Below, piece after piece: positions 2 to 31,116 of a stretch of 64,000 nucleotides of DNA (the first letter of the stretch is position 1; each line of letters begins with the position of its first letter). The translations under genes were made by a program, and so were the position numbers. Source of the DNA: a virus; the IMG/VR virus record IMGVR_UViG_3300045007_000250, positions 22,921 to 86,920 of that record; one strand, written 5' to 3'. The notes under the pieces were generated by a model, which saw only the letters and a list, made by a program, of their open reading frames with translations, searched no databases and had not been told where the DNA came from.

Positions 2-1687
2 CTTTTTGCCGATCCACAGCGGGAAATTGTGGGGGTCAATCTCAAATTTGATACGATGGTGCTTCGTAACAATGGCGTGGAGAACGTGCCCGGAAATGTC
101 GGCACGGCTCGTATTTTCGATTGTATGGTGGCTTCGTGGATGCTTTCAAATGATGAGCGAAAGCATGGTATTGAAGCCGCGGCGGAGCGTTTTCTTCATA
201 CGACGGTGGTGAAAGACCTTGGTGAGATTCGCAAGCTGAAAGCTACAAATCCAGACCTTTATTGGAAAGAGATGTTGCGCTACGGGTACGTGGACGCGAC
301 GATTCCGTTGCAGCTTCGCTCCGTGATGATTCCGATGCTTCATGCCCGGAATTTGGAAAAGGCTTTCAAAGAACTTGAGATGCCGTGCGTTGGTGTGACG
401 ACGGAGATGGAGATGGCCGGTATTCCGATGGACACCGTTCATCTGCAAGCGATTGCACCGGGGATTGAAGAGGCGGCGAAGGCTGCACAGACTGAAGTTT
501 TCAAGTACGCCGGGCGGGAGTTCAACATCGGCTCCCCGGTGCAGTTGTCGGAAGTGCTTTATGAAGGCACTCCGCCACTTCTTTCGAGTGAGGGCTTGGA
601 GCGCGGAAAGTCGCGGGGCAAGAAGAATCCCAAGCCCGGCGCTTATCCCACTGGTTCTGAAATTCTTAAATACTTTGACCACCCTATTGCCAAGGCGGTT
701 CTCGATTGGCGTGGGTCGGAAAAGTTGCTTAGGACATACGTGTATCCTCTCATTGAATTTTCCCATTCCCACGGGGGCCGGATTTACACGTCTTGGAGGC
801 AGACGGGAACCACAACCGGGCGCTATGCCACTTCCGATCCCCTCAACGTGCAGAATTGGCCTCGGAAAAAGGGACTGATTCGGAAGGCGGCGAAGGCGTC
901 TCCTGGTTTCGTGATAGTGGCAAGCGACTATTCGCAGATTGAGTTGCGCCTAATGGCTCACCAAAGTTGTGACCCGGTGATGATCGCGGCGTACCTGGCG
1001 AACGAAGACTTGCACCGGCGTACTGCCGCGTTCCTTTTGCGCATTCCTGAGAGCGAAGTCACTAAAGAGCAGCGACACATGGCGAAGGCGGTGAATTTTG
1101 GCTTCTTGTACGGAATGTCCGCGCAGTCTTTCGTGGAGTACGCTTTCTTGAATTATGGGGTGACGGTGAGTCCTTCCGATGCCGAAGCCTTCCGCAAATC
1201 TTTCTTCTTGCTTTATCGTGGGGTTGCTGAATACCACAATTACATGCGTGATTTTGTTTGGGAGAGGGGGTACGCGGAGAACGTCATTGGCGAGCGTCGG
1301 TATCTGCCGGAACATCGGTCTTCTGATAATTACAAGCGATGGTTGGCGTGGTCGGAAGGCGTGAACTACACGATTCAGGGGAGCGCGGCGGCGCTTATCA
1401 AGATCGCCATGCGCAACATCTACCGTGACTTGATTCGTCCGCACGGGTACAAACGGTCCACCCGGTATGGACGGCTTTTGACGTGTTGGGGCGCTCCGTC
1501 TCTTGCCCACGAAGTCCGCTTGGTGATGCAGGTGCATGATGAATTGGTGTTTGAGGTACGACAGGAAATTGCGGTGCCTTTCTCCAAATGGTTGCGTCAC
1601 AAGATGGAGACTGCGGTAACGGCTTTCAAGATTCCGATTATCGCGGAAGCTGGGATTGGCCCGGACGTGGAAAGTGCGAAAGTGTAG
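2..1687 (+). CDS. polA: DNA polymerase family A (PolI-like), 5'-truncated by the window edge
   Basis: Exonuclease motifs (NLKFD, FDCMVASW), motif A DYSQIELR, motif B RHMAKAVNFGFLYG and motif C QVHDELV. The frame is open from position 2. Confidence 0.97.
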   Translation, partial: LFADPQREIVGVNLKFDTMVLRNNGVENVPGNVGTARIFDCMVASWMLSNDERKHGIEAAAERFLHTTVVKDLGEIRKLKATNPDLYWKEMLRYGYVDATIPLQLRSVMIPMLHARNLEKAFKELEMPCVGVTTEMEMAGIPMDTVHLQAIAPGIEEAAKAAQTEVFKYAGREFNIGSPVQLSEVLYEGTPPLLSSEGLERGKSRGKKNPKPGAYPTGSEILKYFDHPIAKAVLDWRGSEKLLRTYVYPLIEFSHSHGGRIYTSWRQTGTTTGRYATSDPLNVQNWPRKKGLIRKAAKASPGFVIVASDYSQIELRLMAHQSCDPVMIAAYLANEDLHRRTAAFLLRIPESEVTKEQRHMAKAVNFGFLYGMSAQSFVEYAFLNYGVTVSPSDAEAFRKSFFLLYRGVAEYHNYMRDFVWERGYAENVIGERRYLPEHRSSDNYKRWLAWSEGVNYTIQGSAAALIKIAMRNIYRDLIRPHGYKRSTRYGRLLTCWGAPSLAHEVRLVMQVHDELVFEVRQEIAVPFSKWLRHKMETAVTAFKIPIIAEAGIGPDVESAKV

Positions 1688-1698
1688 CGTGGTGAAGT

Positions 1699-3045
1699 AT
1701 GACGACTCCTTTTGTGGATTCTTGGCTGCACCTACCCGTTGGACCATACAATCCGTCCACGTTGGCCGGGCGTCTGACTTTTTTGAGCCGAGCGTCCGAG
1801 TTTGACCCCACCGGTGCGCAGTCTCAGATAGACCTTTTCAAGATGGAGCCGGGTGGGATCGCCATTCCGCGCAATGCTGCAATCGTTCCGCGAAGTGTGA
1901 TCTTGGGTGCAACTGATTGCACTACCGCGGGGGATTATAGGCTTTTCAAAGCCCCGTCCATCACGCTTCGTCCTCATCAAGAGCCGGTGTTGGCAACCGT
2001 GATGGACGCTTTGAGTGGTTCGTATCCTTATGGTGGGATTATCCTGGCGAAGCCGGGAAGCGGAAAGACGGTGATGGCGTTGGAGGTCGCCCGCCGCCTG
2101 TGTCGCACCACCCTGATTTTGGTCCACACGACGGCTTTGATGACGCAGTGGGGAGACCGTATCCGTGAGCATCTTCCGGGTGCGCGGGTGGGTTTTGTTC
2201 GTCAAGGCATGTGTCAGTTCGGTGATAATTACGACTTCGTGGTGGGGATGCTAGAAAGTCTATCCGTCCGACAGTACCCTTCTGCGTTCTACCGATGGCC
2301 GGGTGTGGTGATTACGGATGAGGTTCACCGGCTTGGGGCGGAGACATGGGCACCAGTGATTGTGCAGTTTCCTGCGAAGGTGCGCCTTGGGTTGACGGCC
2401 ACCCCGCGACGCAAGGACGGGTTGGAGCCGGTTTTTTTCTGGCACGTCGGGCCGATCATTTCCACGGCGAAGCACGACGCGATTATGACCCCCACCGTGA
2501 AGGTGGTGAAGTACATCAAGACGTACAAACGAAACTTCATTCAGCGAAACGGGAACTTCAACAGGGCGCGGTGGCTTACCAGTATCGGAGAGGATGCGGA
2601 GCGGAATTGGGTGCTCTGCCAGTTCATTTTGAAGGCGTTGCGGAATGGTAGGAAGATTCTTTGTCTTTCTGATCGTCTTGAGCAGATTGCCGCGGTTCGC
2701 ACCATGCTTGCTCCCCACGTTCCGACCGGGAAGTGGGTTAGTCCCTACGTTGGGGAGTGTACTCCGGCGGAGCGAATGGAGGCCGTGGCGTCGGACGTGA
2801 TTATGGCAACGTACCCGATTGCGGCGGAGGGCTTGGACATACCGGACTTGGACACCCTTATTTTTATGACTCCCCGTGGCGATGTGGAGCAAGCAGTGGG
2901 GCGTATTCAGCGTGTGGTGCCGGGGAAGTTGACGCCGGTAGTCATAGACATTGTGGACGCGGCTTATAGGTTTGGGGTTGCACTGGCAAAGGTTCGGCGG
3001 CGGGTTTACGAAAGAATCGGGGCGATGATGCACGAAGGGCGTTGA
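1699..3045 (+). CDS. Superfamily 2 DNA helicase (DEAD/H-like)
   Basis: Motifs AKPGSGKT (I), DEVH (II), LTATP (III), EGLDIP (V) and QAVGRIQR (VI). Confidence 0.95.
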   Translation: MTTPFVDSWLHLPVGPYNPSTLAGRLTFLSRASEFDPTGAQSQIDLFKMEPGGIAIPRNAAIVPRSVILGATDCTTAGDYRLFKAPSITLRPHQEPVLATVMDALSGSYPYGGIILAKPGSGKTVMALEVARRLCRTTLILVHTTALMTQWGDRIREHLPGARVGFVRQGMCQFGDNYDFVVGMLESLSVRQYPSAFYRWPGVVITDEVHRLGAETWAPVIVQFPAKVRLGLTATPRRKDGLEPVFFWHVGPIISTAKHDAIMTPTVKVVKYIKTYKRNFIQRNGNFNRARWLTSIGEDAERNWVLCQFILKALRNGRKILCLSDRLEQIAAVRTMLAPHVPTGKWVSPYVGECTPAERMEAVASDVIMATYPIAAEGLDIPDLDTLIFMTPRGDVEQAVGRIQRVVPGKLTPVVIDIVDAAYRFGVALAKVRRRVYERIGAMMHEGR

Positions 3046-3070
3046 CAAGCCCCTTTTGGCGTGTTATAGT
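3042..3070 (+). promoter_or_regulatory. sigma70-type promoter, GGCGTGT class
   Basis: TTGACA (3042-47), 17-nt spacer ending GGCGTGT, TATAGT (3065-70). Confidence 0.85.
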
Positions 3071-3104
3071 TAGAAAGGGTGAAACTTTGAAAGGAGAAAC
3101 CCCC

Positions 3105-4040
3105 ATGAGAATACCCGTGAAAGCGAGACCAAGGACGAAGGGCGATGCTCTTCTGGTTTCTTCCGCAGCGTCCGGCGGACCCGTGCAAGACGGGGAGTTG
3201 TCGGAGACCGTGGATACCAGCGTTTTCGACGAGATTGACGGTGTGACGCCTGATCCGGTGGACGACGCCGCTTTGGAGAAGGAACATCTTGCGGCGGGCG
3301 CTTCGGTGGAAGAGGACGCCAATTTGGGTCCGGTGGCCCACATCGAAGACGCAGCGAATATGACGGAAGGCGACGCCGTGAGCGGTGACAAGCCGGTGAC
3401 GATTCCCCAGGGCGGCTTGCCGGTACTTGGCAAAGAGGGTGCTGTGGTGACTTCCGGCACCAAGACCGGGCGGTTTACCACGGCGGTCTCATCCGTCAAG
3501 GAAGTGGAGAAACCGGTGGATTTGGTGAAGGGGCGCGGGGATGCTCCGGTGGAAAAGCATCCGGCTCCGGCTCCCGGTGAGACGGCGGAGATCATCTTGG
3601 TTCCGTCCACCATTACCGTTCGCAAGCAATTCTTGAAAGTCACGGACGGCAAGATGAGGATGGTGCGGGAAGAGGAAAGCACGGAGACCATTGCCGTGCA
3701 TCGCTTCGTAACCATACCGGCGCAGCCGGGGTACACGGCGCAACGCACCGTCAACCTTGGGGACTTCAACTCCCTGAAAGTCGGCGTGTGGGGCACCGTT
3801 CCGTGCTACAAGGAGGAGTACGACGAGGCTTGCCAGTTCATTCAGGAACACACCGACGCTCGCATGGACTCCATTTCGGACGCGATTGACAAGAGCATGG
3901 AAGGCGGGGACGCACCGGAGACCACGTATGAGAAGACTCCGGTTTCCAAAGACAAGGAAACGGCTCCGGCTTCCGAGACCCCGGTGGCGGGAAAAGGTGT
4001 GCGTGAGATTTCCACGTTCAAGCTCCCGATTGTGAGGTAG
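3105..4040 (+). CDS. Hypothetical acidic protein with conserved-looking C-terminal phage domain (TVNLGDFNSLKVGV)
   Basis: AAGGAG RBS before ATG 3105, downstream of a promoter; acidic low-complexity N-terminus. Confidence 0.75.
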   Translation: MRIPVKARPRTKGDALLVSSAASGGPVQDGELSETVDTSVFDEIDGVTPDPVDDAALEKEHLAAGASVEEDANLGPVAHIEDAANMTEGDAVSGDKPVTIPQGGLPVLGKEGAVVTSGTKTGRFTTAVSSVKEVEKPVDLVKGRGDAPVEKHPAPAPGETAEIILVPSTITVRKQFLKVTDGKMRMVREEESTETIAVHRFVTIPAQPGYTAQRTVNLGDFNSLKVGVWGTVPCYKEEYDEACQFIQEHTDARMDSISDAIDKSMEGGDAPETTYEKTPVSKDKETAPASETPVAGKGVREISTFKLPIVR

Positions 4041-4043
4041 GGT

Positions 4044-4805
4044 ATGGACGTGATGGCACAAGCAAAGACGGTCTTGGGGACCGCCAAGAAGATTGTGGTG
4101 TTGACCGGAGCGGGGATTTCCGTTGAAAGCGGTATCCCCGCCTTTCGCACCGATGCCGACGCCTTGTGGTCGAAGTTTGACATGGGCAAGGCCACGCTTT
4201 CCTATTTTCTCCATAACCCGGAAGGGTTTTGGAAGGCTCTTGGCCCGTTGGCGGGGAAGTTCATGGGCGCGAAGCCCAATGCTGCACATGCGGCTTTGGC
4301 CGGTTTGGAGCAGACCGGGCGCTTGAAGGCACTTATCACGCAGAACATTGACGGTCTTCATCAAGAGGCCGGGAGCAAGCGCGTGATCGAATTTCATGGC
4401 AATGCCCGGCGCTTGGTCTGCTTGAAATGCGGCAAGGCGTACTCCGTGGCGGAGATACTTGCCGTGCATGACCCGGAAAATGAGACCATCGTTCCGGCGT
4501 GTGAGTGTGGACAAATCCTGAAACCGGATGCCACCCTTTTCGGTGAATCAATACCCCCGGATGCGCTCAAGGCTGCGCTCAAGGCGGTGCGGGGAATGGT
4601 GGACGCCATGCTGATTGTCGGTACATCCGGTTCCATTCAACCGGCAAACCAGCTTCCTCAGATCGCCAAAGAGCGCGGTGTCAAAGTGATCGAAGTCAAT
4701 CCTTCCCCCACTCCGTACACTCAGCACCGGATTACGGATATTTTTGTGAAGGGGGCTGCGGGGATGGTGCTGCCGCAAATTTTGGGGGGAAAATTATGTC
4801 AGTAA
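4044..4805 (+). CDS. Sir2/CobB-family NAD-dependent protein deacylase
   Basis: GAGISVESGIPAFR, TQNIDGLH, catalytic HG, CxxC..CxC zinc site, GTS and EVN motifs. Confidence 0.95.
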   Translation: MDVMAQAKTVLGTAKKIVVLTGAGISVESGIPAFRTDADALWSKFDMGKATLSYFLHNPEGFWKALGPLAGKFMGAKPNAAHAALAGLEQTGRLKALITQNIDGLHQEAGSKRVIEFHGNARRLVCLKCGKAYSVAEILAVHDPENETIVPACECGQILKPDATLFGESIPPDALKAALKAVRGMVDAMLIVGTSGSIQPANQLPQIAKERGVKVIEVNPSPTPYTQHRITDIFVKGAAGMVLPQILGGKLCQ

Positions 4806-9939: not shown

Positions 9940-9955
9940 ACCGAGGGGGTGACGA

Positions 9956-10180
9956 ATGCCCTTGAGCGGACAAGTGTTGGGTCAGGCGATCATTGCGGCG
10001 GTGCAGGCTCCGCCGGACGCTCAACCGAAAATCTTGGCGATGGCGGAAGCCATCGTGCAGCACTTCATAACGAATGCGGTGGTGACGGTCCCTATCACGG
10101 GGACCGTCATTGCCACGGGAGCGATGGCCGGTGGTCCGGGTGTTCCTTGTGCGGGGACTGCCACTGGCACCGTTGGCTGA
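9956..10180 (+). CDS. Small putative virion (spike-associated type) protein
   Basis: MAEAIVQHFITNAVVTV..TATGTV pattern, Gly/Thr-rich; GAGGGGG RBS. Confidence 0.55.
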   Translation: MPLSGQVLGQAIIAAVQAPPDAQPKILAMAEAIVQHFITNAVVTVPITGTVIATGAMAGGPGVPCAGTATGTVG

Positions 10181-10250
10181 AATCTCTTGCGGGCGTGGTT
10201 GTTTTGCTTTAGCATGTTGACAGAACATTCTTGTCCGCGGGGGTGTGTGA

Positions 10251-11324
10251 ATGGCCGGAAAAGGACGTGCAAGCGGAGCAGCGGGTGGTGGCGGTGGTCC
10301 GACCCGCGAGCAGATTGAAGAAAAAGAGCGGGCGGCAGCGCAGATCGCCGAAGAGCAGCGTGCTCGTGAAGAGTTGATGCGTCGGCAAGAGGCCGAAGCC
10401 AGAGCGCGGGCGCAGGCTGCGGCGCAAGCGGCGCAAGCGGATCGGGCTTTCCAGCAAGCCTACACTCGTTTCGTTTCGCATGAAACCATTACGGGCGCGG
10501 CGCGTGATCGTGGTGTACCCCCCGAATTGCGAAAACAGTTCGTGGGGAACGTCCGTGGGATGCGCGATCAGGTGATGAAGGAAAAACCCGCGAGCATCAT
10601 TGCAAAATTCCGGGCCGATGGGCATACGGTGGACGCTCATGGTGTGTCGGATCGGCGGTTGCGGCAGGCGCTAACCGAAGGCGGGATCAAGCCCATTCGT
10701 GGTGTCACCGCTGCGGAACAGTTGGCGGCTATCTCCGGTATTGCGGGGGTTGGTTTGCGTGGGTGGAATTTTACCATTTCGGGAGCGGGGGACTCTCTTC
10801 TTGTGAGCGGCAAGGGTCCGAGTGGCGGGAGCGTGAGCTATGCCATCTCGAAGGTGTGGAACGCGGAGGCGGGACGTGCCACTCCCATGCTCGGTTATGG
10901 CGGCTTTTTTCCCGGACAGCAGCGCGGCGCGGGTGTGAGTTATTCCGCTATGCCGCGTATGTTTATCATGGCGCGGGCTTCTGGCATTCACGGGTTGGGC
11001 TTTCTCGCTGGTACTGGTGGTAACATGACCGGGGCGGTTGCTTGGCCTTTGATGGGCGCTCGCTTTTTGAATCCTACAGAGGCGCGTGGCGCAATGGAAT
11101 ACATGGCGCGGGCCACGGGGAATCGCCAGTGGTTGCGGTTGCGCGATCCGCGTGACATGATTGGAAAGGATCGGCTGGTGCGTGAGTGGAAACAGCACGC
11201 TCGCAATCTTCCGTCAATGCCGGAGATGGGGCTGAGTTTGCTTGGTCCGCAAGCGCGTGTGGACGGGAAGTATTTGAACAAGTCAACTCTCGAATCGGCG
11301 TATCGCATGATTCGTAGGATGTAG
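10251..11324 (+). CDS. Gly-rich-leader protein with coiled coil and putative C-terminal GNAT acetyltransferase domain
   Basis: N-terminus MAGKGRASGAAGGGGG; E/A/Q/R coiled coil; QQRGAG (motif A-like) and NMTGAVAWPLMG (motif B-like). Confidence 0.55.
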   Translation: MAGKGRASGAAGGGGGPTREQIEEKERAAAQIAEEQRAREELMRRQEAEARARAQAAAQAAQADRAFQQAYTRFVSHETITGAARDRGVPPELRKQFVGNVRGMRDQVMKEKPASIIAKFRADGHTVDAHGVSDRRLRQALTEGGIKPIRGVTAAEQLAAISGIAGVGLRGWNFTISGAGDSLLVSGKGPSGGSVSYAISKVWNAEAGRATPMLGYGGFFPGQQRGAGVSYSAMPRMFIMARASGIHGLGFLAGTGGNMTGAVAWPLMGARFLNPTEARGAMEYMARATGNRQWLRLRDPRDMIGKDRLVREWKQHARNLPSMPEMGLSLLGPQARVDGKYLNKSTLESAYRMIRRM

Positions 11325-11334
11325 GGGAGAAAAG

Positions 11335-11541
11335 ATGGCTCCGAAAAATGGCGAAGTGATGCCGTGGAATCTTTCCGGGTTGAAACGGGGAAAGCCGGAA
11401 AAACCGCGTGGTATTTCTCCCGATGCCGCGGACACACTCATTCAGAATCCGCGGGATTTGCTGAATGACTCGAATCCGGGGATCAGGAAGGCCGCACAGC
11501 GGGCCGTGGAGCTTGCGGATCGGGTCAAGAAGGGGAAATAG
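11335..11541 (+). CDS. Small basic hypothetical protein
   Basis: GGGGAG RBS; fills the gap between two coupled genes. Confidence 0.6.
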   Translation: MAPKNGEVMPWNLSGLKRGKPEKPRGISPDAADTLIQNPRDLLNDSNPGIRKAAQRAVELADRVKKGK

Positions 11542-11544
11542 TGT

Positions 11545-12750
11545 GTGGGTTTCGACATAAACCAAAAACGTGATGCTGAGTATCGTCACACCTTTGCAGC
11601 CCGCGACTACGACTATTTACGAAATTGTAAAACCTGCCCGTTGAAAGAGCTTTGCGGTGGGTGGAGTGTCTGGAATGATGCTCGGTGGTGTGTTGGACCC
11701 GGAGAAGTGTGCGTTGGCGGGGAGTCCGGTAAGTGGGTGCATGGTTGCCGGGCTATCTGTTCCCGTTCCCCGGAGAAGGTGAGTTACCTGGCTACTCTCT
11801 TGGGTCAGGATCATTGCTTTCTCAATCCAGAATACAACCCTGAAAGCCCGGATGTGTGGAAGCGCGTGCAGTACCTTCCGCGGCTCTCCATCGTTGGGGA
11901 GCATCCGTGGGTGTCTTGGGAGTACGATTGGCCGGACGTTGGGTTTCAGGTGAACGCCCATGTAGAAGGGATTTACCAAGACCTCTACACCATTTCTTTG
12001 AAACATCTCTATTACCCGGATCGGGATTCGTGGTCCCCTCAGAAGGATGTACGGAAGCGTTTTCAGATACCCAAAGATTCAGCAGTGGCGATCACCACCA
12101 CGACCCACGATTTTCATTTGGATCGTCTCTGTGAGGACTTGGATTTGTGGGCGGATGAGATGGTGGAGTTTGAGGGGGTGGACTTCATCATTGCTCCGAA
12201 TCTTTCCGTGTACGACAACTACCCGCGTCTGGACAACCTTTTTCAGATCAAGCGCAAGTGGATCATGCTGGAAAAGCTGCAACGCCGCGGGGCGCTGGTG
12301 CTTCCCGACGTTTGCTTTGTAACTTCTGGCGATTTCAAGAATCAGGTGGCGTGGATGCGGGACAATCACTGTACCTGCATGATGATGAATTTTCAGGTGC
12401 AGGCGGTGACGACTACGACCCCGCAATGGCGTGCTCAGTTGAAGAACGCTCTCATGGTCCGCGACTTCTTGGGGTGGCCGGTGCAAATGCTTGCATACGG
12501 AGCCACGGGTGGGGACCGTATGGTGGAGATTGCCAAGCACTATCCCACCACGACGTTCCTTGACGCCAAGAGCTTCCGGCTGGCGGAGTTCCACCACGAT
12601 CTGTTCGGGGGGACGGACAAGACGAAGCTGGTGAAGGTGCAGTTTCGTGAGAACTGTGCCGCGATGATTGAGCGCGTGCGGAAGGCGAAGAAAGGATTTG
12701 CGCTCGGCGACGACCTGTGCGATAATGCGACAAACGGTGAGGATGAGTGA
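11545..12750 (+). CDS. DUF4417-like protein with Cys-rich N-terminal domain
   Basis: DFHLDRL..IAPNLSVYDNYP..N...RK....LQRRG..VLPDV matches the DUF4417 pattern as recalled; N-terminal CxxCx5CGG..C..C..CxxxC. Confidence 0.65.
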   Translation: MGFDINQKRDAEYRHTFAARDYDYLRNCKTCPLKELCGGWSVWNDARWCVGPGEVCVGGESGKWVHGCRAICSRSPEKVSYLATLLGQDHCFLNPEYNPESPDVWKRVQYLPRLSIVGEHPWVSWEYDWPDVGFQVNAHVEGIYQDLYTISLKHLYYPDRDSWSPQKDVRKRFQIPKDSAVAITTTTHDFHLDRLCEDLDLWADEMVEFEGVDFIIAPNLSVYDNYPRLDNLFQIKRKWIMLEKLQRRGALVLPDVCFVTSGDFKNQVAWMRDNHCTCMMMNFQVQAVTTTTPQWRAQLKNALMVRDFLGWPVQMLAYGATGGDRMVEIAKHYPTTTFLDAKSFRLAEFHHDLFGGTDKTKLVKVQFRENCAAMIERVRKAKKGFALGDDLCDNATNGEDE

Positions 12751-14168
12751 TGCCCGCTATTCTGGACCGCTGTGTAGCACACCTTCAAGCCCGCGGGGTA
12801 AGCACGTCTTCGTCCTACGCCATTTGCACGTCTTCTCTGCAACGCGCTGGCAAACTTCCCCGCGGAAAGTCCAAGAAAGAGCTTGAGGTTGAGTTCGGCG
12901 AGTGGTCCAAACGGGTACTGTTGCCTTCCGATTTTACTCTTTCCATGCAGATGATTTGGGAGCATTTTGCTCCCGGTGACGTGAATCTCTTGAAGGCTCT
13001 TCGCAAGGTATCGGTTCTGGATGAGGATTACTCCGATCAGACCGATCCCGTGAAGCGCAAGAGGGAGTTGGCTCGGAGGAAGCGCATTCTTGGCGAGGCG
13101 CGGTTGCACTCCAAGAACATCTCCATGAATCCGAAGGCGCTGGTGCGTATCGGGGATCATCCGGTGTGGTATGGTACGGTGGCGATCCATGAGGCGCAAC
13201 ATGCGGTGTACGGTTTTGGGGAGCACGAAGCAACCCGCGGGGAACAGCGGTGGCTTGGGAAGCTCTTTGCGGAGTATTCCTTGGATTTCGACAAACCGGC
13301 CATGATGCTCACGATGAGGGCCGCGGCAGTGGCTCAGGCGCAGAGGGAGAAGGACGTGCATCATGCGCACCGGGCCAAGGACTTTCACTTCTTGAACTCG
13401 GTGGGCTTCACTGCCCGTGCTGCTCGCAGGATTCTTGCCATTGGCCGGGCGATGGAGAAGTACCGGAAGTGGCATGTTCAACAGGAAGATGATGCTGCGA
13501 AGGATTATTACGACTTCATGGAAGGCGATCTTACGTGGATCGAAAGGACCGTGGACGCCGATCTTGAGGAAGCCTTCGGCGATTTGATTGAAAAGACCTT
13601 TTTTCCCGTTGTGCATGGGGTGGAGAGGTTGCTTGGCTCCGGTGCGGGCGGGTACGCGGACGCGGTGGACTCCAAGGGGGCGCGTGGCGGGCGGAATCCT
13701 TACATGGGAAGCCCGGCGGAGCGGCGTATTTCCACTGGTGGCGATGTGCCCGTGTCATCTGGTGTGTCGTCTCCAAGCCCTCCCTCCACTGTGCGGAATC
13801 CGTATGACGACCGGTACGATTACATGGTGACGGCGGACACGCCTACACCGTGGACTACGGTTGCGGGCATGATGGAGCGATACATCAATCGGTCCATCAC
13901 TCGGCGTGTGGGAAAGGAACTTCGTGGGCCTTTGGGCGTGGTTCCTGCCTTGCGTCGTGCCGGATGGGATGCCAAGAATCTTCCTGCTGAATGGAAGGAG
14001 AAACGCCTTGCTTCTCTGCGCGAATGCTTGCCTTCGTTGAAAACACAGGGGCTTTTTGATGAGGACGGGGAAGTGACGGACGCCCATCTTCTTTGCCTGC
14101 TCCATGCGTGGACCCCGGTGCCCCACTTGATCTTTGACGACGAAGCCCTAGACGTGGTTCTCGTCTGA
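12750..14168 (+). CDS. Hypothetical protein with zincin HExxH motif
   Basis: AIHEAQHAVYGFGEHEA at ~13182-13230; small N-terminal RCV...YAIC domain. Confidence 0.55.
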   Translation: MPAILDRCVAHLQARGVSTSSSYAICTSSLQRAGKLPRGKSKKELEVEFGEWSKRVLLPSDFTLSMQMIWEHFAPGDVNLLKALRKVSVLDEDYSDQTDPVKRKRELARRKRILGEARLHSKNISMNPKALVRIGDHPVWYGTVAIHEAQHAVYGFGEHEATRGEQRWLGKLFAEYSLDFDKPAMMLTMRAAAVAQAQREKDVHHAHRAKDFHFLNSVGFTARAARRILAIGRAMEKYRKWHVQQEDDAAKDYYDFMEGDLTWIERTVDADLEEAFGDLIEKTFFPVVHGVERLLGSGAGGYADAVDSKGARGGRNPYMGSPAERRISTGGDVPVSSGVSSPSPPSTVRNPYDDRYDYMVTADTPTPWTTVAGMMERYINRSITRRVGKELRGPLGVVPALRRAGWDAKNLPAEWKEKRLASLRECLPSLKTQGLFDEDGEVTDAHLLCLLHAWTPVPHLIFDDEALDVVLV

Positions 14169-14183
14169 TCCCACAATTAGTAG

Positions 14184-14213
14184 TTGCATATTCCTCTTTT
14201 GGCGTGTTATGAT
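14184..14213 (+). promoter_or_regulatory. sigma70-type promoter, GGCGTGT class
   Basis: TTGCAT-18 nt (..GGCGTGT)-TATGAT upstream of the ParB-terminase genes. Confidence 0.7.
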
Positions 14214-14240
14214 TTCGGCGGATGTTTTTGAGGATGCATC

Positions 14241-15221
14241 ATGCCGAAGAAAAAGGTTGTCAATGTTTCTGAGCCAAGGACGGAAGCCCCGGCTGTTCCG
14301 GTCGAAAAGAAGAGTCGCTTGTCTCGCCTTCCATTTCGGGGACGCATCGCCGCCCGTCCTGTTCCCGAAGAGCTTGGCGAACCTGGGACAGCGCATAAGG
14401 ATACTGCGTGGCTTGACGAGGGTTTCCTTCCCCCCGATTCTCTGGCGAGTACGCCGGAATCCATGAAGCTGCCCGGCACCTTGGCCGACATTTCCTTGGT
14501 GAAGCTCAGGCCGAACACATGGAATCCGAACAGGATGACCAACAAGACGTTTGATTTGTTGGTGCGCCGGATGCGTGAGGCGGGGTGCTTGCAGCCGATT
14601 CGTGTGTGGCTTGACCCCGCGGATGGCATGTACGAGATTGTGGACGGGTTTCACCGATTCAAAGCCGCTGGCATCTTGGGGTGGGAGACCATTCCCGCGC
14701 TGGTGTTTCCTGAAAAGTGGGACGATCCCGATTTGCGGGTGTTCACCGGCATGACGCTCAATAACGTCCACGGACAGAACGATCCTGTGGAGTTTTTGAA
14801 GCTCTACAACCAGTTGCTTCCGAAGTACCCGGACAAAGAGTTGCAAGACCTCATGGGCTTTGCGGAGCGAACCAAGTGGAAGATTCTTACCAAGGGCATC
14901 ATGGAGGGACTGCCAAAGGGGATGAGGAAGGCGTTTGGTGAGCGGGTGAAGGACGCCACTGCGGATGAGTTGGGCGGCATCCTGCAAGAGTTGATGGCGC
15001 ACTACGGCAATGATCTGCGTTTCAATTTCATGGTCTTCACGCTGGACGGCGTGGAGAATGTGTGGATTCGGTGTCTTCCCGAAACAATGCAAGGGATTGC
15101 ACAACTCGCGGAGAAATGCCGGGAGAGCGGTGTGGACATAAACTATCCTCTCATGGATGGACTCACTCATGCGCTCAACAGCTTTACCGCGGAGCCGGAT
15201 AAGGAAACTGCCAGAGCATGA
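14241..15221 (+). CDS. ParB/Srx N-terminal domain protein
   Basis: LRPNTWNPN and EIVDGFHRFKAA motifs. Confidence 0.85.
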   Translation: MPKKKVVNVSEPRTEAPAVPVEKKSRLSRLPFRGRIAARPVPEELGEPGTAHKDTAWLDEGFLPPDSLASTPESMKLPGTLADISLVKLRPNTWNPNRMTNKTFDLLVRRMREAGCLQPIRVWLDPADGMYEIVDGFHRFKAAGILGWETIPALVFPEKWDDPDLRVFTGMTLNNVHGQNDPVEFLKLYNQLLPKYPDKELQDLMGFAERTKWKILTKGIMEGLPKGMRKAFGERVKDATADELGGILQELMAHYGNDLRFNFMVFTLDGVENVWIRCLPETMQGIAQLAEKCRESGVDINYPLMDGLTHALNSFTAEPDKETARA

Positions 15222-15997
15222 GTACGCGACCGCAAGTGCGAAGATCGAAGCAGTCAAAAAAGCCGGTGCCGAAGCAGGCGGTGACGCGGCTTCAAGACCT
15301 GCCCATTTACAATGTGCTCCTTGAAAAATTGCTCTCCGGTGTTTCTTGCAATCAGTTGGCGGGGTGGATCAAGGGGCAGGGGTTTTTTCCCGACGTGAAT
15401 ACCGAAGCTCTGCGAAAGGCGCTTGACCGTCTTCGTCGTGCCGAGCAGAGGGCGCATCCCCCGTTGGCTCCGACGTTGAGTAATCCCGTTCCGCAGCCTG
15501 TCACCGATGACGGAGCCGTGGAGATCAAGGAGACCAAACTTCTTCCACCGGAGATTGCGGCTTTGGAAGAGTTGGCGATGTTGCAACAGGACCGTATCAA
15601 CCTGCTCCACGATAATGAAAGGAAGATCAAACACCTTTTCCCGCAAGGAAGGGGGGAAGTTGCTGAACTGCGTGCGATACTACACACCCTTCTGGACAAG
15701 AAGCGAGAGCTTGGCACGCCGGGGTACGGTGGTCCGCAGCAACCCGCGCCGGAGCGTGGTGGTGATGTGAACCTGACCCTCCATGTTGGGCAACTCACCC
15801 AACAGACCATGACTGTGTTGGGAGACCCCGGATCGCGGCGGCGGGTGCTGGATGCGTTGCGGGCGTTGGGCACTAAGGGGGACTTGGACAGGCTGCTTTT
15901 GAAGAAGCGTCTTGGAGACAATGTTTTGTCCGAAGCCGGGCTGCTTGAGGACGGCGAAAAGAAAGAACCTGTAACGGTAGTGGTGGCTGGTCCATGA
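15218..15997 (+). CDS. Putative terminase small subunit
   Basis: Helical, HTH-like N-terminus; coupled directly to the large terminase. Confidence 0.55.
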   Translation: MSTRPQVRRSKQSKKPVPKQAVTRLQDLPIYNVLLEKLLSGVSCNQLAGWIKGQGFFPDVNTEALRKALDRLRRAEQRAHPPLAPTLSNPVPQPVTDDGAVEIKETKLLPPEIAALEELAMLQQDRINLLHDNERKIKHLFPQGRGEVAELRAILHTLLDKKRELGTPGYGGPQQPAPERGGDVNLTLHVGQLTQQTMTVLGDPGSRRRVLDALRALGTKGDLDRLLLKKRLGDNVLSEAGLLEDGEKKEPVTVVVAGP

Positions 15998-17832
15998 GCC
16001 CCCCTGAGACTCCTCTTCCGCCGCAACTCCTACCCGAAGAGGCGGAGATGCTTTCTCGCCTTTCGCCGGAAGAGCGGGAAGTTCTGCAAATGATCCTCTT
16101 GGGCAATGAGGATTTGCTGACCGCTATCTACGATCAGGAGTATGAAGAATCCCCGGTGGATGCTAAGACCTTTTTCACCGATCCTTATTACTTGGGTGTA
16201 ACCGGTGGAGACCTCTATCCGCAGGTGTTGGACGACCTTTGTGAGATTTTCAACCCGGAGAGGAATTATCTTGAAGTAATCCTTGGCGGAGCAATCGGAT
16301 GGGGAAAGAGCACTGAAGTTGAATTTGGTTTGCTTCGGTGCCTTTATGAGATTGCTTGCTTGCGTAATCCCCAGCGGTCCTTTGGTCTCATGGAAGGCTC
16401 GTCTATCGTCATCATCAACCTTTCGGTCACGGAGCAACAGGCGCGGAAGGCCATTTTTTCCGGTCTTCTGGCGAAGGTGCGGCAGTCTCCGTTTTTCAAG
16501 AACAACTTTGCCTATGATCCTACCGTAGTCTCGGAGCTTCGTTTCCCCAAAGGCATCACGGTGTTCCCCGGAGCTTCCACGGACAATTCCATTCTCGGTT
16601 TGAACGTCGTGGCCGGAGCGGTGGATGAAACCAACTTCATGCCCATCATGGAAGTACGGAAGACTGCTGGGGGAAGGTCCGCGGGCGTGTATGATAAGGC
16701 GGCGTCCTTGTATAACGCCATGATTCGTCGCATGAAGAGCCGCTTCCTTCGACATGGACGTTTGCCCGGCAAGATGTTTTCTCTTTCCAGTGCGCAGTAC
16801 CCCAACGATTTTATTGAGCGGAAGGTGCGGCAGGCGCTTTCCGACACGACCATTTTTGCCCGCCGATATGCCCTTTGGGACGTGAAGCGTGAACAGTTCT
16901 CTACGCAGACTTTTCCGGTGGAAGTCGGCACGGACCTTTCCGGTTCCCGTGTGCTTTACCCCGGAGATCAGCCGACCGGGAAAGTGATTGACGTTCCGGT
17001 GGACTTCCGACCTGATTTTGAAAAGGACTGTGACGGCTCTCTTCGTGACATTGCCGGGGTCAGCACGCTTACCGTGGATCAGTTCATCAAGGACTTCGGG
17101 AAGGTGGTGGAATGCGTCAATGAGAAGCGCCGCCACGCCTTCACTAAGGAGTTCACCACCCTTGAGGATGGGGCTAAACTTCGGCTTTCTACTCTGCTCA
17201 AGGAGAATCCTCAGAATCCGCGGTGGAAGCCGGTGCTCATTCACAATCCTGAATCCTTGCGAGTGGTTCACATTGACCCCTCGCTAACCCGCGACGCCAC
17301 CGGCATTGCCGTGGGGCACATTTCCGATATGGTGCGGGTGGTGCGGCGGCAGGATGATGGGACGGAGAAGGTGGAGTGGGCACCCTTCATCGTCTATGAC
17401 TTGCTGTTGCGTATTGTTCCACCGCGGCACCGGGAGATTCAGTACGACCGAATCCGCGACATTATTTATCGGCTGCAAGAGGTTGGGATGCGGATTGGGT
17501 TTGTGTCTATGGATAGCTTTCAAACGGCGGAGATGAGGCAACAGCTTACGCGGCGGCGCATTCCCAACGATGTGCTTTCGATTGACCGCACCACCGAACC
17601 ATACGAAATTCTCAAGGCGGCTTTGTATGAGAAGCGGGTGGACCTGTACCCCTACCCCGTTGCGATGAAGGAGCTTCGCCAGTTGGAGCATGACCGACTC
17701 AAGGGAAAGATTGACCACCCGGAGCATGGGTCCAAAGACGTGTCCGACGCGATGGCGGGCGTGGCTTATATTCTCACTTTGCACGCGGCTCGTTTCTATA
17801 AGCCCAAGGTGAGCGTAAGCACATTCGGTTGA
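15994..17832 (+). CDS. terL: Terminase large subunit
   Basis: Walker A GGAIGWGKS, Walker B AVDE, and RNase H-like nuclease motifs HIDPSLTRDATG, SMDSFQ and DHP..GSKDVSDA. Confidence 0.93.
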   Translation: MSPPETPLPPQLLPEEAEMLSRLSPEEREVLQMILLGNEDLLTAIYDQEYEESPVDAKTFFTDPYYLGVTGGDLYPQVLDDLCEIFNPERNYLEVILGGAIGWGKSTEVEFGLLRCLYEIACLRNPQRSFGLMEGSSIVIINLSVTEQQARKAIFSGLLAKVRQSPFFKNNFAYDPTVVSELRFPKGITVFPGASTDNSILGLNVVAGAVDETNFMPIMEVRKTAGGRSAGVYDKAASLYNAMIRRMKSRFLRHGRLPGKMFSLSSAQYPNDFIERKVRQALSDTTIFARRYALWDVKREQFSTQTFPVEVGTDLSGSRVLYPGDQPTGKVIDVPVDFRPDFEKDCDGSLRDIAGVSTLTVDQFIKDFGKVVECVNEKRRHAFTKEFTTLEDGAKLRLSTLLKENPQNPRWKPVLIHNPESLRVVHIDPSLTRDATGIAVGHISDMVRVVRRQDDGTEKVEWAPFIVYDLLLRIVPPRHREIQYDRIRDIIYRLQEVGMRIGFVSMDSFQTAEMRQQLTRRRIPNDVLSIDRTTEPYEILKAALYEKRVDLYPYPVAMKELRQLEHDRLKGKIDHPEHGSKDVSDAMAGVAYILTLHAARFYKPKVSVSTFG

Positions 17833-30914: not shown

Positions 30915-31116
30915 AAGAAGGCGATTGCAAAGTTGTCGAAATTGCCGCACAGTATGTGTGGTAAGGGATTCGTCCGGGCTTTGTGACTTGTGCCGCGGAG
31001 TGCCCGTTGCTTCCACGGTTCGCAAGGTGGGTTTCGACAATGAAAGTGTGGTGACACGCACCTTGTTTGGTGGGAGAGAAGATGCCCGAAGAAAAGTCAA
31101 ACAAAGATTCCGCTAG
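30892..31116 (+). CDS. Possible small zinc-finger protein
   Basis: CRNC..CDLC; overlaps both neighbours. Confidence 0.35.
   Translation: MAKPAQSERRRLQSCRNCRTVCVVRDSSGLCDLCRGVPVASTVRKVGFDNESVVTRTLFGGREDARRKVKQRFR

What the first reader, a model, noticed from the sequence alone, without database searches (positions are those of the whole stretch)
10251..15221. Candidate undescribed packaging-linked modification/effector system: Gly-leader GNAT + Cys-rich DUF4417 + HExxH protein + ParB, next to the terminase
Seen: five co-oriented genes lie immediately before terS/terL. They encode (1) a protein starting MAGKGRASGAAGGGGG with a coiled coil and a GNAT-like C-terminus, (2) a 68-aa basic peptide, (3) a DUF4417-like enzyme with an extra Cys-rich N-domain, (4) an HExxH protein and (5) a ParB/Srx protein. 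Known: phage ParB-terminase neighbourhoods often carry DNA-modifying enzymes. From memory (unverified), DUF4417 genes commonly sit next to genes whose products start with a Gly-rich MGGRG-like leader followed by a variable effector domain. Inference: the DUF4417 enzyme modifies the Gly/Arg leader, or ligates it to DNA, so that an acetyltransferase effector is packaged and injected with the genome. ParB would couple this to packaging and the zincin would process the cargo.
Basis: partly seen in the sequence, partly recalled or inferred. Interest (0 to 1): 0.85.

Follow-up and report, generated by a model that had tools for sequence, protein, structure and literature searches.

The report
Glycine-tagged phage cargo beside TGT-like enzyme
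Just before its DNA-packaging genes, this uncultivated phage of about 100 kb encodes a barrel enzyme shaped like base-swapping transglycosylases, a zinc-protease-like protein and a ParB-type NTPase. It also encodes several unrelated arginine-rich proteins that all begin with the same glycine-rich tag, and I found no paper in the held library that describes this enzyme-plus-tag pairing.

Summary
The five co-oriented genes exist as described. ORF3 (11545-12750) belongs to a Cys-rich branch of the DUF4417 superfamily. Its high-confidence model is a TIM barrel whose five best solved matches are all tRNA/DNA-guanine-transglycosylase relatives (ArcTGT, QTRT2, TGT, DpdA, Cap10). ORF5 is a ParB-type protein and ORF4 is a conserved orphan HExxH protein. 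The GNAT call for ORF1 stays inconclusive.

The main result concerns ORF1's Gly-rich start. The same tag heads three more genes of this phage and 19 genes in five related phage lineages, on unrelated, basic, mostly lysine-poor bodies; one is a DRAT-like ADP-ribosyltransferase. Every testable locus with the DUF4417-like gene has tagged genes. Five syntenic relatives that lack the ORF1-ORF4 block (327 kb) have no convincing tagged gene. In cultured phages A25, L5, Soups, CELFI and Equemioh13, the ORF after canonical DUF4417 starts MGGRG.

Closest precedents are type IV CBASS (TGT-like Cap10 holding a Gly-rich N-terminus that carries a deazaguanine) and DpdA/DpdB (TGT-like enzyme plus ParB-like ATPase acting on DNA). 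No QueC-like gene is present, so the chemistry is unknown.

This scan had already noted the same pairing on other DNA, including two of the relatives used here. I found no paper on it.

The parts
10251..11324 (+). ORF1, a tagged cargo protein (357 aa, pI 10.8). It has a Gly-rich N-terminal tag (residues 1-17), a long helix (about 19-74) and an alpha/beta C-terminal domain that may be GNAT-like.
   Evidence: ORF and sequence. Only two homologues were found, one being a shorter public call of this same gene. The syntenic gene in G001 keeps the tag but has an unrelated body. GNAT rests on leads only (QQRGAG motif). My model is poor.
10251..10301 (+). The tag itself, M-A-G-K-G-R-A-S-G-A-A-G-G-G-G-G-P. 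Family consensus is M-G-x-G-R/G-x-G-G-G-x-G-G-G.
   Evidence: The tag is shared with G000 genes at 300-824, 852-1436 and 1561-2187 in genome coordinates, outside the window. It is also shared with 19 genes in G001 and L015-L018. An SD sequence precedes nearly every ATG.
11335..11541 (+). ORF2, a 68-aa basic peptide of unknown role.
   Evidence: A 77-aa basic ORF occupies the same place in G001, but BLASTP finds no similarity between them. No family hit.
11545..11910 (+). ORF3 N-terminal Cys-rich domain (residues 1-122), with the pattern C-x2-C-x5-C...C...C...C-x3-C. It probably binds metal (Zn or Fe-S).
   Evidence: Seven Cys are invariant and the pattern is conserved across the wider family. 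There is only a non-significant resemblance to MYND zinc fingers (E about 0.35). The fold of this domain was not tested on its own.
11911..12750 (+). ORF3 catalytic TIM barrel (residues about 123-386), DUF4417 superfamily with a TGT-like fold.
   Evidence: AF2 model: pLDDT 92, pTM 0.90. VIA top five: ArcTGT Z 17.3, QTRT2 15.9, TGT 15.4, DpdA 14.4, Cap10 14.1; generic barrels score 14.0 or lower. Foldseek TMq is highest for human TGT. Phage proteins annotated as queuine tRNA-ribosyltransferase recur among the BFVD matches. Conserved D189, N219/S221, Q284 and G319 follow consecutive beta strands.
12747..14168 (+). ORF4, an orphan HExxH (zincin-like) protein. The conserved core is about residues 100-230, with HEAQH at 148-152 (window 13188-13202) and invariant G156, E159 and E166.
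   Evidence: HMM hits occur in three of the four DUF4417-positive contigs among the 80 ParB-seeded loci and in none of the 76 negative ones; tblastn also finds a homologue in L016. No Pfam, PHROG, NCBIfam, PADLOC or PDB family. The Atlas gives only weak M78/SprT-type leads on a poor model.
14241..15221 (+). ORF5, a ParB/Srx-fold protein with the GxxRxxA NTP-binding box.
   Evidence: PF02195 at 38.5 bits and phrog_26387 at 4.5e-42. Motifs PNxWNPN and DGxHRxKAA are conserved. It is a core gene of the lineage that also occurs without the cassette.
15218..15997 (+). Putative small terminase subunit (context).
   Evidence: Position before terL, and 56% identity over 93 aa to the G001 gene in the same place. 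No family hit.
15994..17832 (+). Large terminase subunit (context).
   Evidence: phrog_9 at E 9e-5. 66% identity to the G001 ORF and 44% to the L016 ORF in the same place.

Best explanation
This is a phage enzyme-tag-cargo module.

Shown: a swappable set of proteins carries one short N-terminal tag. The set includes small Arg-rich, mostly Lys-poor proteins and enzyme effectors such as ADP-ribosyltransferases, possibly with a GNAT in this window. The tag reads Met, then Gly or Ala, then a basic Gly-rich stretch of about 15 residues. The tagged genes travel together with a DUF4417-type TIM-barrel enzyme whose fold is closest to the base-exchanging transglycosylases.

Inferred: after the initiator Met is removed, the free Gly/Ala N-terminus enters the barrel's pocket, as the Gly-rich N-terminus of CdnD does in Cap10. 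The enzyme would be loaded on phage DNA by the ParB-type NTPase, as DpdA needs DpdB, and would couple the tagged proteins to the DNA by exchange-type chemistry at a sugar C1'. The coupling could be direct through the alpha-amine or go through a small adduct. The cargo would then be packaged by the neighbouring terminase and delivered with the genome into the next host. The HExxH protein would trim or release the cargo.
For: Fold:
- The five best solved matches of the ORF3 barrel are all TGT-superfamily enzymes, including the DNA enzyme DpdA and the protein-binding Cap10.

Tag:
- 23 tagged ORFs in six lineages have unrelated bodies and real translation starts.

Co-variation:
- All six testable DUF4417-positive contigs carry tags, including genes 25-31 kb from the enzyme gene.
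- Syntenic relatives have exo-phrog_17202-ParB with the ORF1-ORF4 block missing as a unit.
- Five such contigs (327 kb) hold no DUF4417 gene and no convincing tagged gene.
- On the ParB tree the module needs at least 2 gains or losses.

Generality:
- MGGRG starts the ORF that follows canonical DUF4417 in A25, L5, Soups, CELFI and Equemioh13.

Cargo nature:
- A DRAT-like ART above the Pfam cut-off and annotated VIP2-like toxins.
- Tagged proteins have K 2.4% and R 12.9%, against 4.4% and 6.0% for the genome's long ORFs.

Precedents:
- Cap10 holds the M(G/S)G(G/S)GG N-terminus of CdnD, conjugated at Gly2, poised for transfer.
- DpdA needs the ParB-like ATPase DpdB to exchange bases in DNA.
- ParB-DUF4417 fusions are frequent in phages.

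Position:
- The module lies beside terminase or portal genes here and in relatives.
Against: - No biochemical step is shown.
- No sequence similarity to TGT (PF01702) was found, and the catalytic Asp residues could not be mapped. The fold could serve another chemistry.
- No QueC-like enzyme, which makes the conjugate in CBASS type IV, is encoded in G000 or in the complete relative G001.
- ParB is present in many relatives without the module.
- The DUF4417-positive contigs are related phages and the negative contigs are fragments (32-70% complete), so co-variation is not fully independent.
- In IPP14 the GGGRG motif lies inside the next protein, not at its start.
- A folded protein tethered to DNA would have to pass the portal.
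Confidence: 0.35

Rival explanations
1. There are two separate functions in one mobile cassette. DUF4417 with ParB would be a DpdA/DpdB-like DNA base-modifying machine that protects phage DNA from restriction. The Gly-rich tag would be an independent address label, like a capsid-targeting or export signal, read by head or scaffold proteins or by the HExxH protease in the manner of the T4 internal proteins. The enzyme would never touch the tag.
For: - TGT-like fold with DpdA among the best matches.
- The ParB partner fits the DpdA/DpdB precedent.
- Tandem polymorphic arrays of small basic proteins with a shared leader resemble the T4 internal proteins and Alt (my own knowledge, not checked in a paper here).
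- Most tagged genes of G000 and G001 lie 25-31 kb from the enzyme gene.
- Atlas structure neighbours of ORF1 include phage MuF-linked GNAT proteins, a type of head-packaged effector.
Against: - The tags and the enzyme co-vary at whole-contig level.
- The pairing is immediate in very distant phages of Actinobacteria and Streptococcus. A mere hitch-hiking pair would not be expected to keep this.
- No deazaguanine synthesis gene was found (QueC absent).
- The closest structural family includes an enzyme that binds exactly this kind of N-terminus.
Confidence: 0.25
2. This is a protein-only modification or chaperoning. The DUF4417 enzyme would bind the tag, and perhaps add a small group to its N-terminus, to keep toxic effectors (ARTs, possibly a GNAT) inactive or stable in the producing cell, or to activate them. 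This would resemble Cap10 holding CdnD inactive. DNA would not be a substrate.
For: - Cap10 holds its partner in an inactive state through the tagged N-terminus, and has lost the Zn site and basic patch that TGT uses to bind nucleic acid.
- Several cargo bodies are toxin-type enzymes.
- Canonical DUF4417 proteins of A25 and L5 are short (about 230 aa) and lack the Cys-rich domain; neither is annotated with a ParB domain.
Against: - ParB fusion or adjacency is frequent.
- Most tagged proteins here are small Arg-rich proteins that look like nucleic-acid binders rather than toxins.
- The consistent placement next to packaging genes has no explanation under this view.
Confidence: 0.25
3. There is no functional link. 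The Gly-rich starts would be low-complexity sequence or mis-called starts that recur by common descent.
For: - Gly-rich ORF starts arise easily in GC-rich DNA; loose criteria give many spurious hits.
- The six uncultivated lineages share ancestry.
Against: - Exact motifs recur, such as six MGRGG genes in one locus, each with an SD before the ATG.
- The same MGGRG occurs in unrelated cultured phages of different host phyla.
- No convincing tag occurs in 327 kb of GC-rich relatives without the enzyme.
Confidence: 0.03

Closest known systems
Type IV CBASS accessory module: Cap9 (QueC-like) and Cap10 (TGT-like) acting on the CD-NTase N-terminus (Wassarman et al., bioRxiv 10.1101/2025.04.06.647259; PDB 9ntn)
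   Same: A TGT-fold barrel is paired with a partner protein whose N-terminus starts Met-Gly and continues Gly-rich. After Met removal the N-terminal Gly lies in the barrel pocket. Cap10 is among the five best structural matches of ORF3 (Z 14.1).
   Different: - That system is a bacterial defence system with one fixed partner (a cyclase).
- It needs the QueC-like Cap9 to make the 7-amido-7-deazaguanine conjugate, and no QueC-like gene is present here.
- Here there are many unrelated cargo proteins, a phage setting, a Cys-rich N-domain, and ParB and HExxH neighbours.
- ORF3 shows no sequence similarity to TGT.
DpdA/DpdB of the Dpd 7-deazaguanine DNA modification system (PMC10164549; PDB 7ui4)
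   Same: A TGT-fold enzyme works with a ParB-superfamily NTPase on double-stranded DNA. DpdA matches the ORF3 barrel at Z 14.4. The ParB-type gene lies one gene away.
   Different: - DpdA inserts the free base preQ0.
- No tagged proteins are involved.
- DpdB carries a DGQQR motif and a different C-terminal domain, whereas ORF5 has the classical GxxRxxA box.
- The Dpd system sits in a restriction-modification island, not next to a terminase.
ParB-CTPase fold fused to DUF4417 in phages (bioRxiv 10.1101/2025.10.10.680097)
   Same: The same two domains are linked in phages. I confirmed one fusion, IPP14 gp25.
   Different: That paper reports the fusion as a domain of unknown function and, in the passages I read, does not mention tagged neighbours. 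Here the two domains are separate genes, with an HExxH gene between them.
T4 internal proteins IPI-III and Alt with an N-terminal capsid-targeting sequence
   Same: A short shared N-terminal leader sits on unrelated, basic, rapidly swapped proteins, among them an ADP-ribosyltransferase. The genes partly lie in tandem arrays, and the proteins are presumed to travel in the virion.
   Different: The T4 leader is not Gly-rich. It is read by the scaffolding core and cut by the prohead protease. No TGT-like enzyme is involved.
MuF polymorphic toxins and other head-packaged phage effectors
   Same: Variable toxin or effector domains are attached to a constant module for delivery by the virion. Atlas structure neighbours of ORF1 include GNAT proteins, 13% of which carry Phage_Mu_F.
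   Different: In those systems the constant part is a large folded head protein fused to the effector, not a 15-residue tag with a separate enzyme.

Membership tests
DUF4417 (PF14386) | Pfam model match above the gathering score | tested here: not met
   ORF3 scores 20.3 bits against a cut-off of 28.9 (E 4e-4, residues 206-265 only).
DUF4417 (PF14386) | Homology to recognised members through intermediates | tested here: met
   A profile search gave 419 relatives at E up to 0.001. Of 63 chosen, 41 match PF14386 (best 2.6e-17). An HMM of those 63 hits A25_22 (5e-23) and L5 gp1 (2e-17).
tRNA/DNA-guanine transglycosylase (TGT) superfamily | (beta/alpha)8 barrel with TGT enzymes as closest structures | tested here: met
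   The top five of 48,161 chains are ArcTGT (Z 17.3), QTRT2 (15.9), TGT (15.4), DpdA (14.4) and Cap10 (14.1), with 235-262 residues aligned. The margin over generic barrels (Z 14.0) is small for the last two.
tRNA/DNA-guanine transglycosylase (TGT) superfamily | Sequence match to the TGT family (PF01702 or solved TGT chains) | tested here: not met
   No PF01702 match in G000. No TGT chain appears in phmmer or hmmsearch against PDB sequences at E up to 10.
tRNA/DNA-guanine transglycosylase (TGT) superfamily | Catalytic Asp nucleophile and nucleobase-reading Asp/Ser residues in equivalent positions | not testable with these tools
   The fold tools give no residue-level superposition. Invariant D189, D213, N219/S221, D263 and Q284 lie at or near strand ends, but they were not mapped onto TGT.
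Type IV CBASS Cap9/Cap10 module | QueC-family enzyme (Cap9) encoded with the TGT-like protein | tested here: not met
   No PF06508 match in G000 (82% complete) or in the complete relative G001.
Type IV CBASS Cap9/Cap10 module | Partner protein with an N-terminal Met-(Gly/Ser)-Gly-rich extension | tested here: met
   Tags include MGKGRSGGG, MAGKGRASG, MAKGRSGGG, MGRGGAAGGG and MGDGKGGG, compared with M(G/S)G(G/S)GG. Here the tag is basic, and in some phages it starts Met-Ala.
DpdA/DpdB-type DNA transglycosylase pair | TGT-fold enzyme encoded with a ParB-superfamily NTPase | tested here: met
   ORF3 and ORF5 lie one gene apart. The pair is conserved in L002, L015, L017 and L018 and fused in IPP14. 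However, ParB also occurs without the enzyme.
DpdA/DpdB-type DNA transglycosylase pair | Exchange of a DNA base for a 7-deazaguanine | not testable with these tools
   This needs nucleoside LC-MS. Only QueC was searched among the synthesis genes, and it is absent.
GNAT acetyltransferases (ORF1 C-terminus) | Match to a GNAT profile or a confident GNAT fold | tested here: inconclusive
   No Pfam hit even at E up to 1 on residues 113-357. The model has pLDDT 55. VIA matched only the long helix, and Foldseek gave nothing at E below 0.1. Atlas structure rows point to GNAT clusters at TM 0.31-0.45.
GNAT acetyltransferases (ORF1 C-terminus) | Acetyl-CoA motif A, (Q/R)-x-x-G-x-(G/A), before a helix | tested here: met
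   QQRGAG at residues 223-228 is followed by predicted helix 234-243. It is kept as QARGAG in P0007. A six-residue motif alone is weak evidence.
Zincin metallopeptidases (ORF4) | Conserved HExxH with a third metal ligand | tested here: inconclusive
   HEAxH is invariant in 7 homologues, and E159 and E166 are invariant candidates for the third ligand. No peptidase family matches and the Atlas model is poor.
ParB/Srx superfamily (ORF5) | ParB_N profile match and the GxxRxxA nucleotide-binding box | tested here: met
   PF02195 at 38.5 bits, above the 26.3 cut-off. phrog_26387 at 4.5e-42. G136, R139 and A142 are invariant.
T4-type capsid-targeted internal proteins | Shared short N-terminal leader on unrelated basic proteins, partly in tandem arrays | tested here: met
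   The proteins have pI 10.2-12.0, and BLASTP finds no significant similarity between bodies (best E 0.03).
T4-type capsid-targeted internal proteins | Presence in virions and leader removal by the prohead protease | not testable with these tools
   This needs virion proteomics.

The most novel reading that the evidence does not exclude
Phages of many groups, including L5-like, A25-like and this lineage, would use a TGT-fold enzyme to join proteins covalently to their own DNA through a Gly-rich N-terminal tag. The link would form either directly through the alpha-amine or through a small adduct. Effectors and DNA-coating proteins would then be packaged by the terminase and enter the next host with the genome. 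This would be a new kind of protein-nucleic acid conjugation and a general, swappable system for delivering phage cargo.
Probability: 0.2. Interest if true: 0.95.

Novelty: categorically new. Interest (0 to 1): 0.8.

Why it matters
DUF4417 has no known function, yet tblastn finds homologues of the A25 gene in 508 records of cultured phages. They include textbook phages such as L5 and A25, where the gene sits at the packaging end of the genome.

Linking DUF4417 to a short, transferable N-terminal tag on unrelated effectors gives the family a testable function. It would also explain how siphoviruses that lack a T4-like core might deliver toxins, anti-defence enzymes and DNA-coating proteins.

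If the chemistry resembles Cap10 or DpdA, it would extend nucleobase- or sugar-linked protein conjugation from one defence system to a large part of the phage world. It could also offer a compact tag-and-enzyme pair for conjugating proteins to nucleic acids.

The tag corrects gene starts as well: A25_23 and Soups gene 2 start upstream of their annotated starts, and L5 has an unannotated ORF.

Tried and rejected
I used the search for related loci instead.
- ORF3 alone, and the A7 alignment, found nothing in viral contigs. The A2 and A4 alignments were too diverse for a pattern search.
- tblastn of ORF3, ORF1, P0054 and P0018 against cultured phages found nothing.
- PDB sequence searches for ORF1, ORF3 and ORF4 and for profiles A2 and A9 gave only non-significant rows.
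- PADLOC gave nothing except a weak methyltransferase-linked ParB hit.
- Complex prediction of ORF3 with the tag (residues 1-45 of A8) returned 'no answer' (score 0.01). This is neither support nor evidence against.
- The ORF1 model was too poor for fold searches.
- L019 has the DUF4417-like gene at a contig end, so its downstream side could not be tested.
- L054, a close ParB relative of L050, ends just upstream of ParB and is likewise untestable.
- I considered a phage-encoded preQ0 pathway. QueC is absent; FolE, QueD and QueE were not searched.
- I considered ORF2 a conserved partner. It shows no similarity to the G001 peptide in the same position.
- A full-text search for MGGRG found no relevant paper. 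The four papers that mention DUF4417 give it no function.

Full report
**Setting.** The window is bases 22921-86920 of an 86.9-kb IMG/VR phage record (G000, about 82% complete). Genes read almost entirely on the + strand. Upstream of the finding lie DNA polymerase A, a helicase, Sir2, a RecA-like protein, a SWIM protein, a Cas4-like exonuclease, a RuvC-like resolvase and a phrog_17202 protein. Downstream lie the presumed terminase genes and a portal gene.

**Observation.** All five ORFs are present as described.
- ORF1 starts MAGKGRASGAAGGGGG, followed by a long predicted helix.
- ORF2 is a 68-aa basic peptide.
- ORF3 has a conserved Cys-rich N-domain, with seven Cys invariant in close relatives. 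Four of them are at least 90% conserved across 63 relatives.
- ORF3's GTG start is supported by the conserved MGF(D/E)I N-terminus of homologues. The public gene call (P0001, 316 aa) omits this domain.
- ORF4 keeps HEAxH, G156, E159 and E166 in all seven homologues.
- ORF5 is a ParB_N protein with the GxxRxxA box.
- The GNAT assignment of ORF1 could not be confirmed. No profile hit was found and my model was poor. What remains is Atlas structural leads (TM 0.31-0.45) and a QQRGAG motif.

**What ORF3 is.**
- Directly, ORF3 hits DUF4417 below the Pfam cut-off.
- A profile of six close homologues found 419 relatives. Of 63 chosen, 41 match DUF4417. An HMM of these hits the canonical DUF4417 proteins of phages A25 and L5.
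- With that alignment AlphaFold gives a confident model (pLDDT 92, pTM 0.90).
- An exhaustive structural comparison puts five TGT-superfamily enzymes on top: archaeosine TGT (Z 17.3), QTRT2 (15.9), bacterial TGT (15.4), the DNA preQ0 insertase DpdA (14.4) and CBASS Cap10 (14.1). Generic TIM barrels score 14.0 or lower.
- Foldseek agrees on the barrel, with the highest TM for human TGT. Phage proteins annotated as queuine tRNA-ribosyltransferase recur among the viral matches.
- Conserved polar residues (D189, N219/S221, Q284, G319) follow consecutive strands, which is the usual catalytic face of a barrel.
- There is no sequence-level match to TGT. I therefore call it TGT-like in fold, not a TGT family member.

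**The tag.**
I confirmed three of them: MGKGRSTGG..., MGKGRSGGG... and MGKGRAGGG....
- The complete 106.6-kb relative G001 has the syntenic ORF1 counterpart plus a tandem array of four genes, all starting MAKGR(S/A)GGG.
- Its ORF1 counterpart shares the tag but not the body.
- Four more distant loci, whose DUF4417-like proteins are 28-34% identical to ORF3, carry tagged genes close to the enzyme gene. L015 has six MGRGG genes, L016 has four MGDAR/MGDGK genes, L017 has two, and L018 has one or two.
- The 23 proteins are 87-357 aa long. The nine from G000 and G001 have pI 10.2-12.0 and bodies unrelated by BLASTP. The 23 average K 2.4% and R 12.9%, against 4.4% and 6.0% for the genome's long ORFs.
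- They have no PHROG family. One is a DRAT-like ADP-ribosyltransferase that scores above the Pfam cut-off.
- Nearly all have a Shine-Dalgarno sequence at the right distance, so the tag is the true N-terminus.

**Is the link more than shared descent?**
- I seeded a survey with the ParB protein, which gave 80 viral loci.
- Only the four already-known contigs hold the DUF4417-like gene. Each has same-strand tagged genes, and three also gave an HMM hit for the HExxH gene.
- None of the 76 others has the HExxH gene. Of these, 62 have no tag-like ORF, and the other 14 show only loose hits, about half of them on the opposite strand.
- Syntenic relatives (L023-L033) run exonuclease, phrog_17202, ParB with no gap. 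The ORF1-ORF4 block (window about 9950-14170) is therefore present or absent as a unit.
- Five such contigs, fetched whole (327 kb, GC up to 0.62), contain no DUF4417 relative. Stricter criteria gave only two doubtful tag-like ORFs, both in one contig. G000 has four tagged genes and G001 five, including genes 25-31 kb from the enzyme gene.
- Six of six positive contigs against none of five negative ones gives about p = 0.002 by my arithmetic (1/462). The contigs are related to one another and the negative ones are fragments.
- On a ParB tree the module needs at least two gains or losses.

**Generality.**
- Earlier follow-ups in this scan reported the same pairing in other genomes and named L5 and A25. 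I tested this claim.
- In A25, the ORF after DUF4417 (A25_22) starts MGGRGASSG when read from an ATG nine codons upstream of the annotated A25_23 start.
- In L5, an unannotated 112-aa ORF starting MGGRGSKGG begins just before the end of gene 1, which is DUF4417.
- In Gordonia phage Soups and in Equemioh13, the VIP2-like toxin genes after DUF4417 start MGGRG. In CELFI, gp111 does the same.
- In IPP14, whose DUF4417 is fused to ParB, the next protein carries GGGRG internally at about residue 64.
- tblastn finds homologues of A25's DUF4417 in 508 cultured-phage records. I inspected only six.

**How it may work.** Two published systems frame the mechanism.
- In type IV CBASS, the TGT-like Cap10 binds the Gly-rich N-terminus of its cyclase. 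That N-terminus carries a 7-amido-7-deazaguanine put on Gly2 by the QueC-like Cap9, and it is poised for transfer to an unknown target.
- In the Dpd system, the TGT-like DpdA exchanges bases in DNA only with the ParB-like ATPase DpdB.
- The present module combines both themes: a TGT-fold barrel, Gly-rich N-termini and a ParB-type NTPase, placed next to the packaging genes.
- My best reading (confidence 0.35) is that the enzyme engages the free N-terminus of tagged proteins and couples them to phage DNA for co-packaging and delivery, with the HExxH protein as a processing or release factor.
- Only the gene-level association and the fold are shown. Every chemical step is inferred.
- The absence of any QueC-like gene means the chemistry cannot simply copy CBASS.
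- The rivals are a DNA-modifying enzyme plus an unrelated capsid-targeting tag (0.25), protein-only modification or chaperoning of toxic cargo (0.25), and no link at all (0.03).

**Novelty.** The only functional statement on DUF4417 in the held library is that it is often fused to ParB in phages and is of unknown function. MGGRG does not occur in a relevant paper. The pairing therefore appears undescribed in print. This scan, however, has met it repeatedly on other DNA, including the contigs behind my L015 and G001. This window adds a variant with a Cys-rich N-domain, MGKGR/MAGKGR tags, an HExxH partner, and indel evidence that the block moves as a unit.

Noticed in passing
window 31067-33907 (+): The 946-aa portal protein carries LAGLIDADG/homing-endonuclease matches in its middle (residues about 490-545), which suggests an intein. 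tblastn to the L018 portal splits into two pieces around this insert.
   Followed up: partly
L120 (Mycobacterium phage L5, Z18946) 1081-1419 (+): An unannotated 112-aa ORF starts MGGRGSKGGPGPG and begins just before the end of gene 1 (DUF4417). It overlaps the annotated start of gene 2 (1305) in another frame. This could be a missed gene, a frameshift site or an error in the old sequence.
   Followed up: partly
L121 (Streptococcus phage A25, KT388093) 2858-3268 (+): A25_23 is probably annotated nine codons too short. Read from the upstream ATG, it starts MGGRGASSG, directly after the DUF4417 gene A25_22.
   Followed up: yes
L122 (Streptococcus phage IPP14, NC_070925) 2623-3369 (+): After the ParB-DUF4417 fusion gp25, gp26 has the motif GGGRG inside the protein (about residue 64, after ...NFTL) instead of at the start. 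This hints that the tag may be exposed by proteolysis in some phages.
   Followed up: no
A8 (23 tagged proteins; G000, G001, L015-L018): Most tagged proteins are strongly depleted in lysine while rich in arginine. Several have 0-2 Lys in 100-220 residues, and sometimes the only Lys is the one in the tag. This would suit chemistry aimed at a single amine, or avoidance of Lys-directed host modification.
   Followed up: partly
L015:15806-16693 (+): A tagged protein (MGRGGGAIGAGGG...) matches the DRAT ADP-ribosyltransferase family above the Pfam cut-off (27.2 bits against 25).
   Followed up: yes
window 13340-13440 (ORF4 residues about 200-232): The stretch ...DFHFLNSVGFTARAARRIL aligns weakly with the UBA region of NUB1 (E 0.24, not significant). 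It is conserved in the short HExxH homologues of L015 and L016.
   Followed up: no
window 11545-11800 (ORF3 N-domain): The public gene call for ORF3 (P0001, 316 aa) starts downstream and drops the conserved Cys-rich domain. The family profile resembles MYND zinc fingers only weakly (E about 0.35).
   Followed up: partly
window 4044-4805 (+) and G000 11899-13080, 13910-17279: The phage also encodes a Sir2-family protein, an N6/N4 DNA methylase and a CobS/CobT-like AAA plus VWA pair. None was examined further.
   Followed up: no
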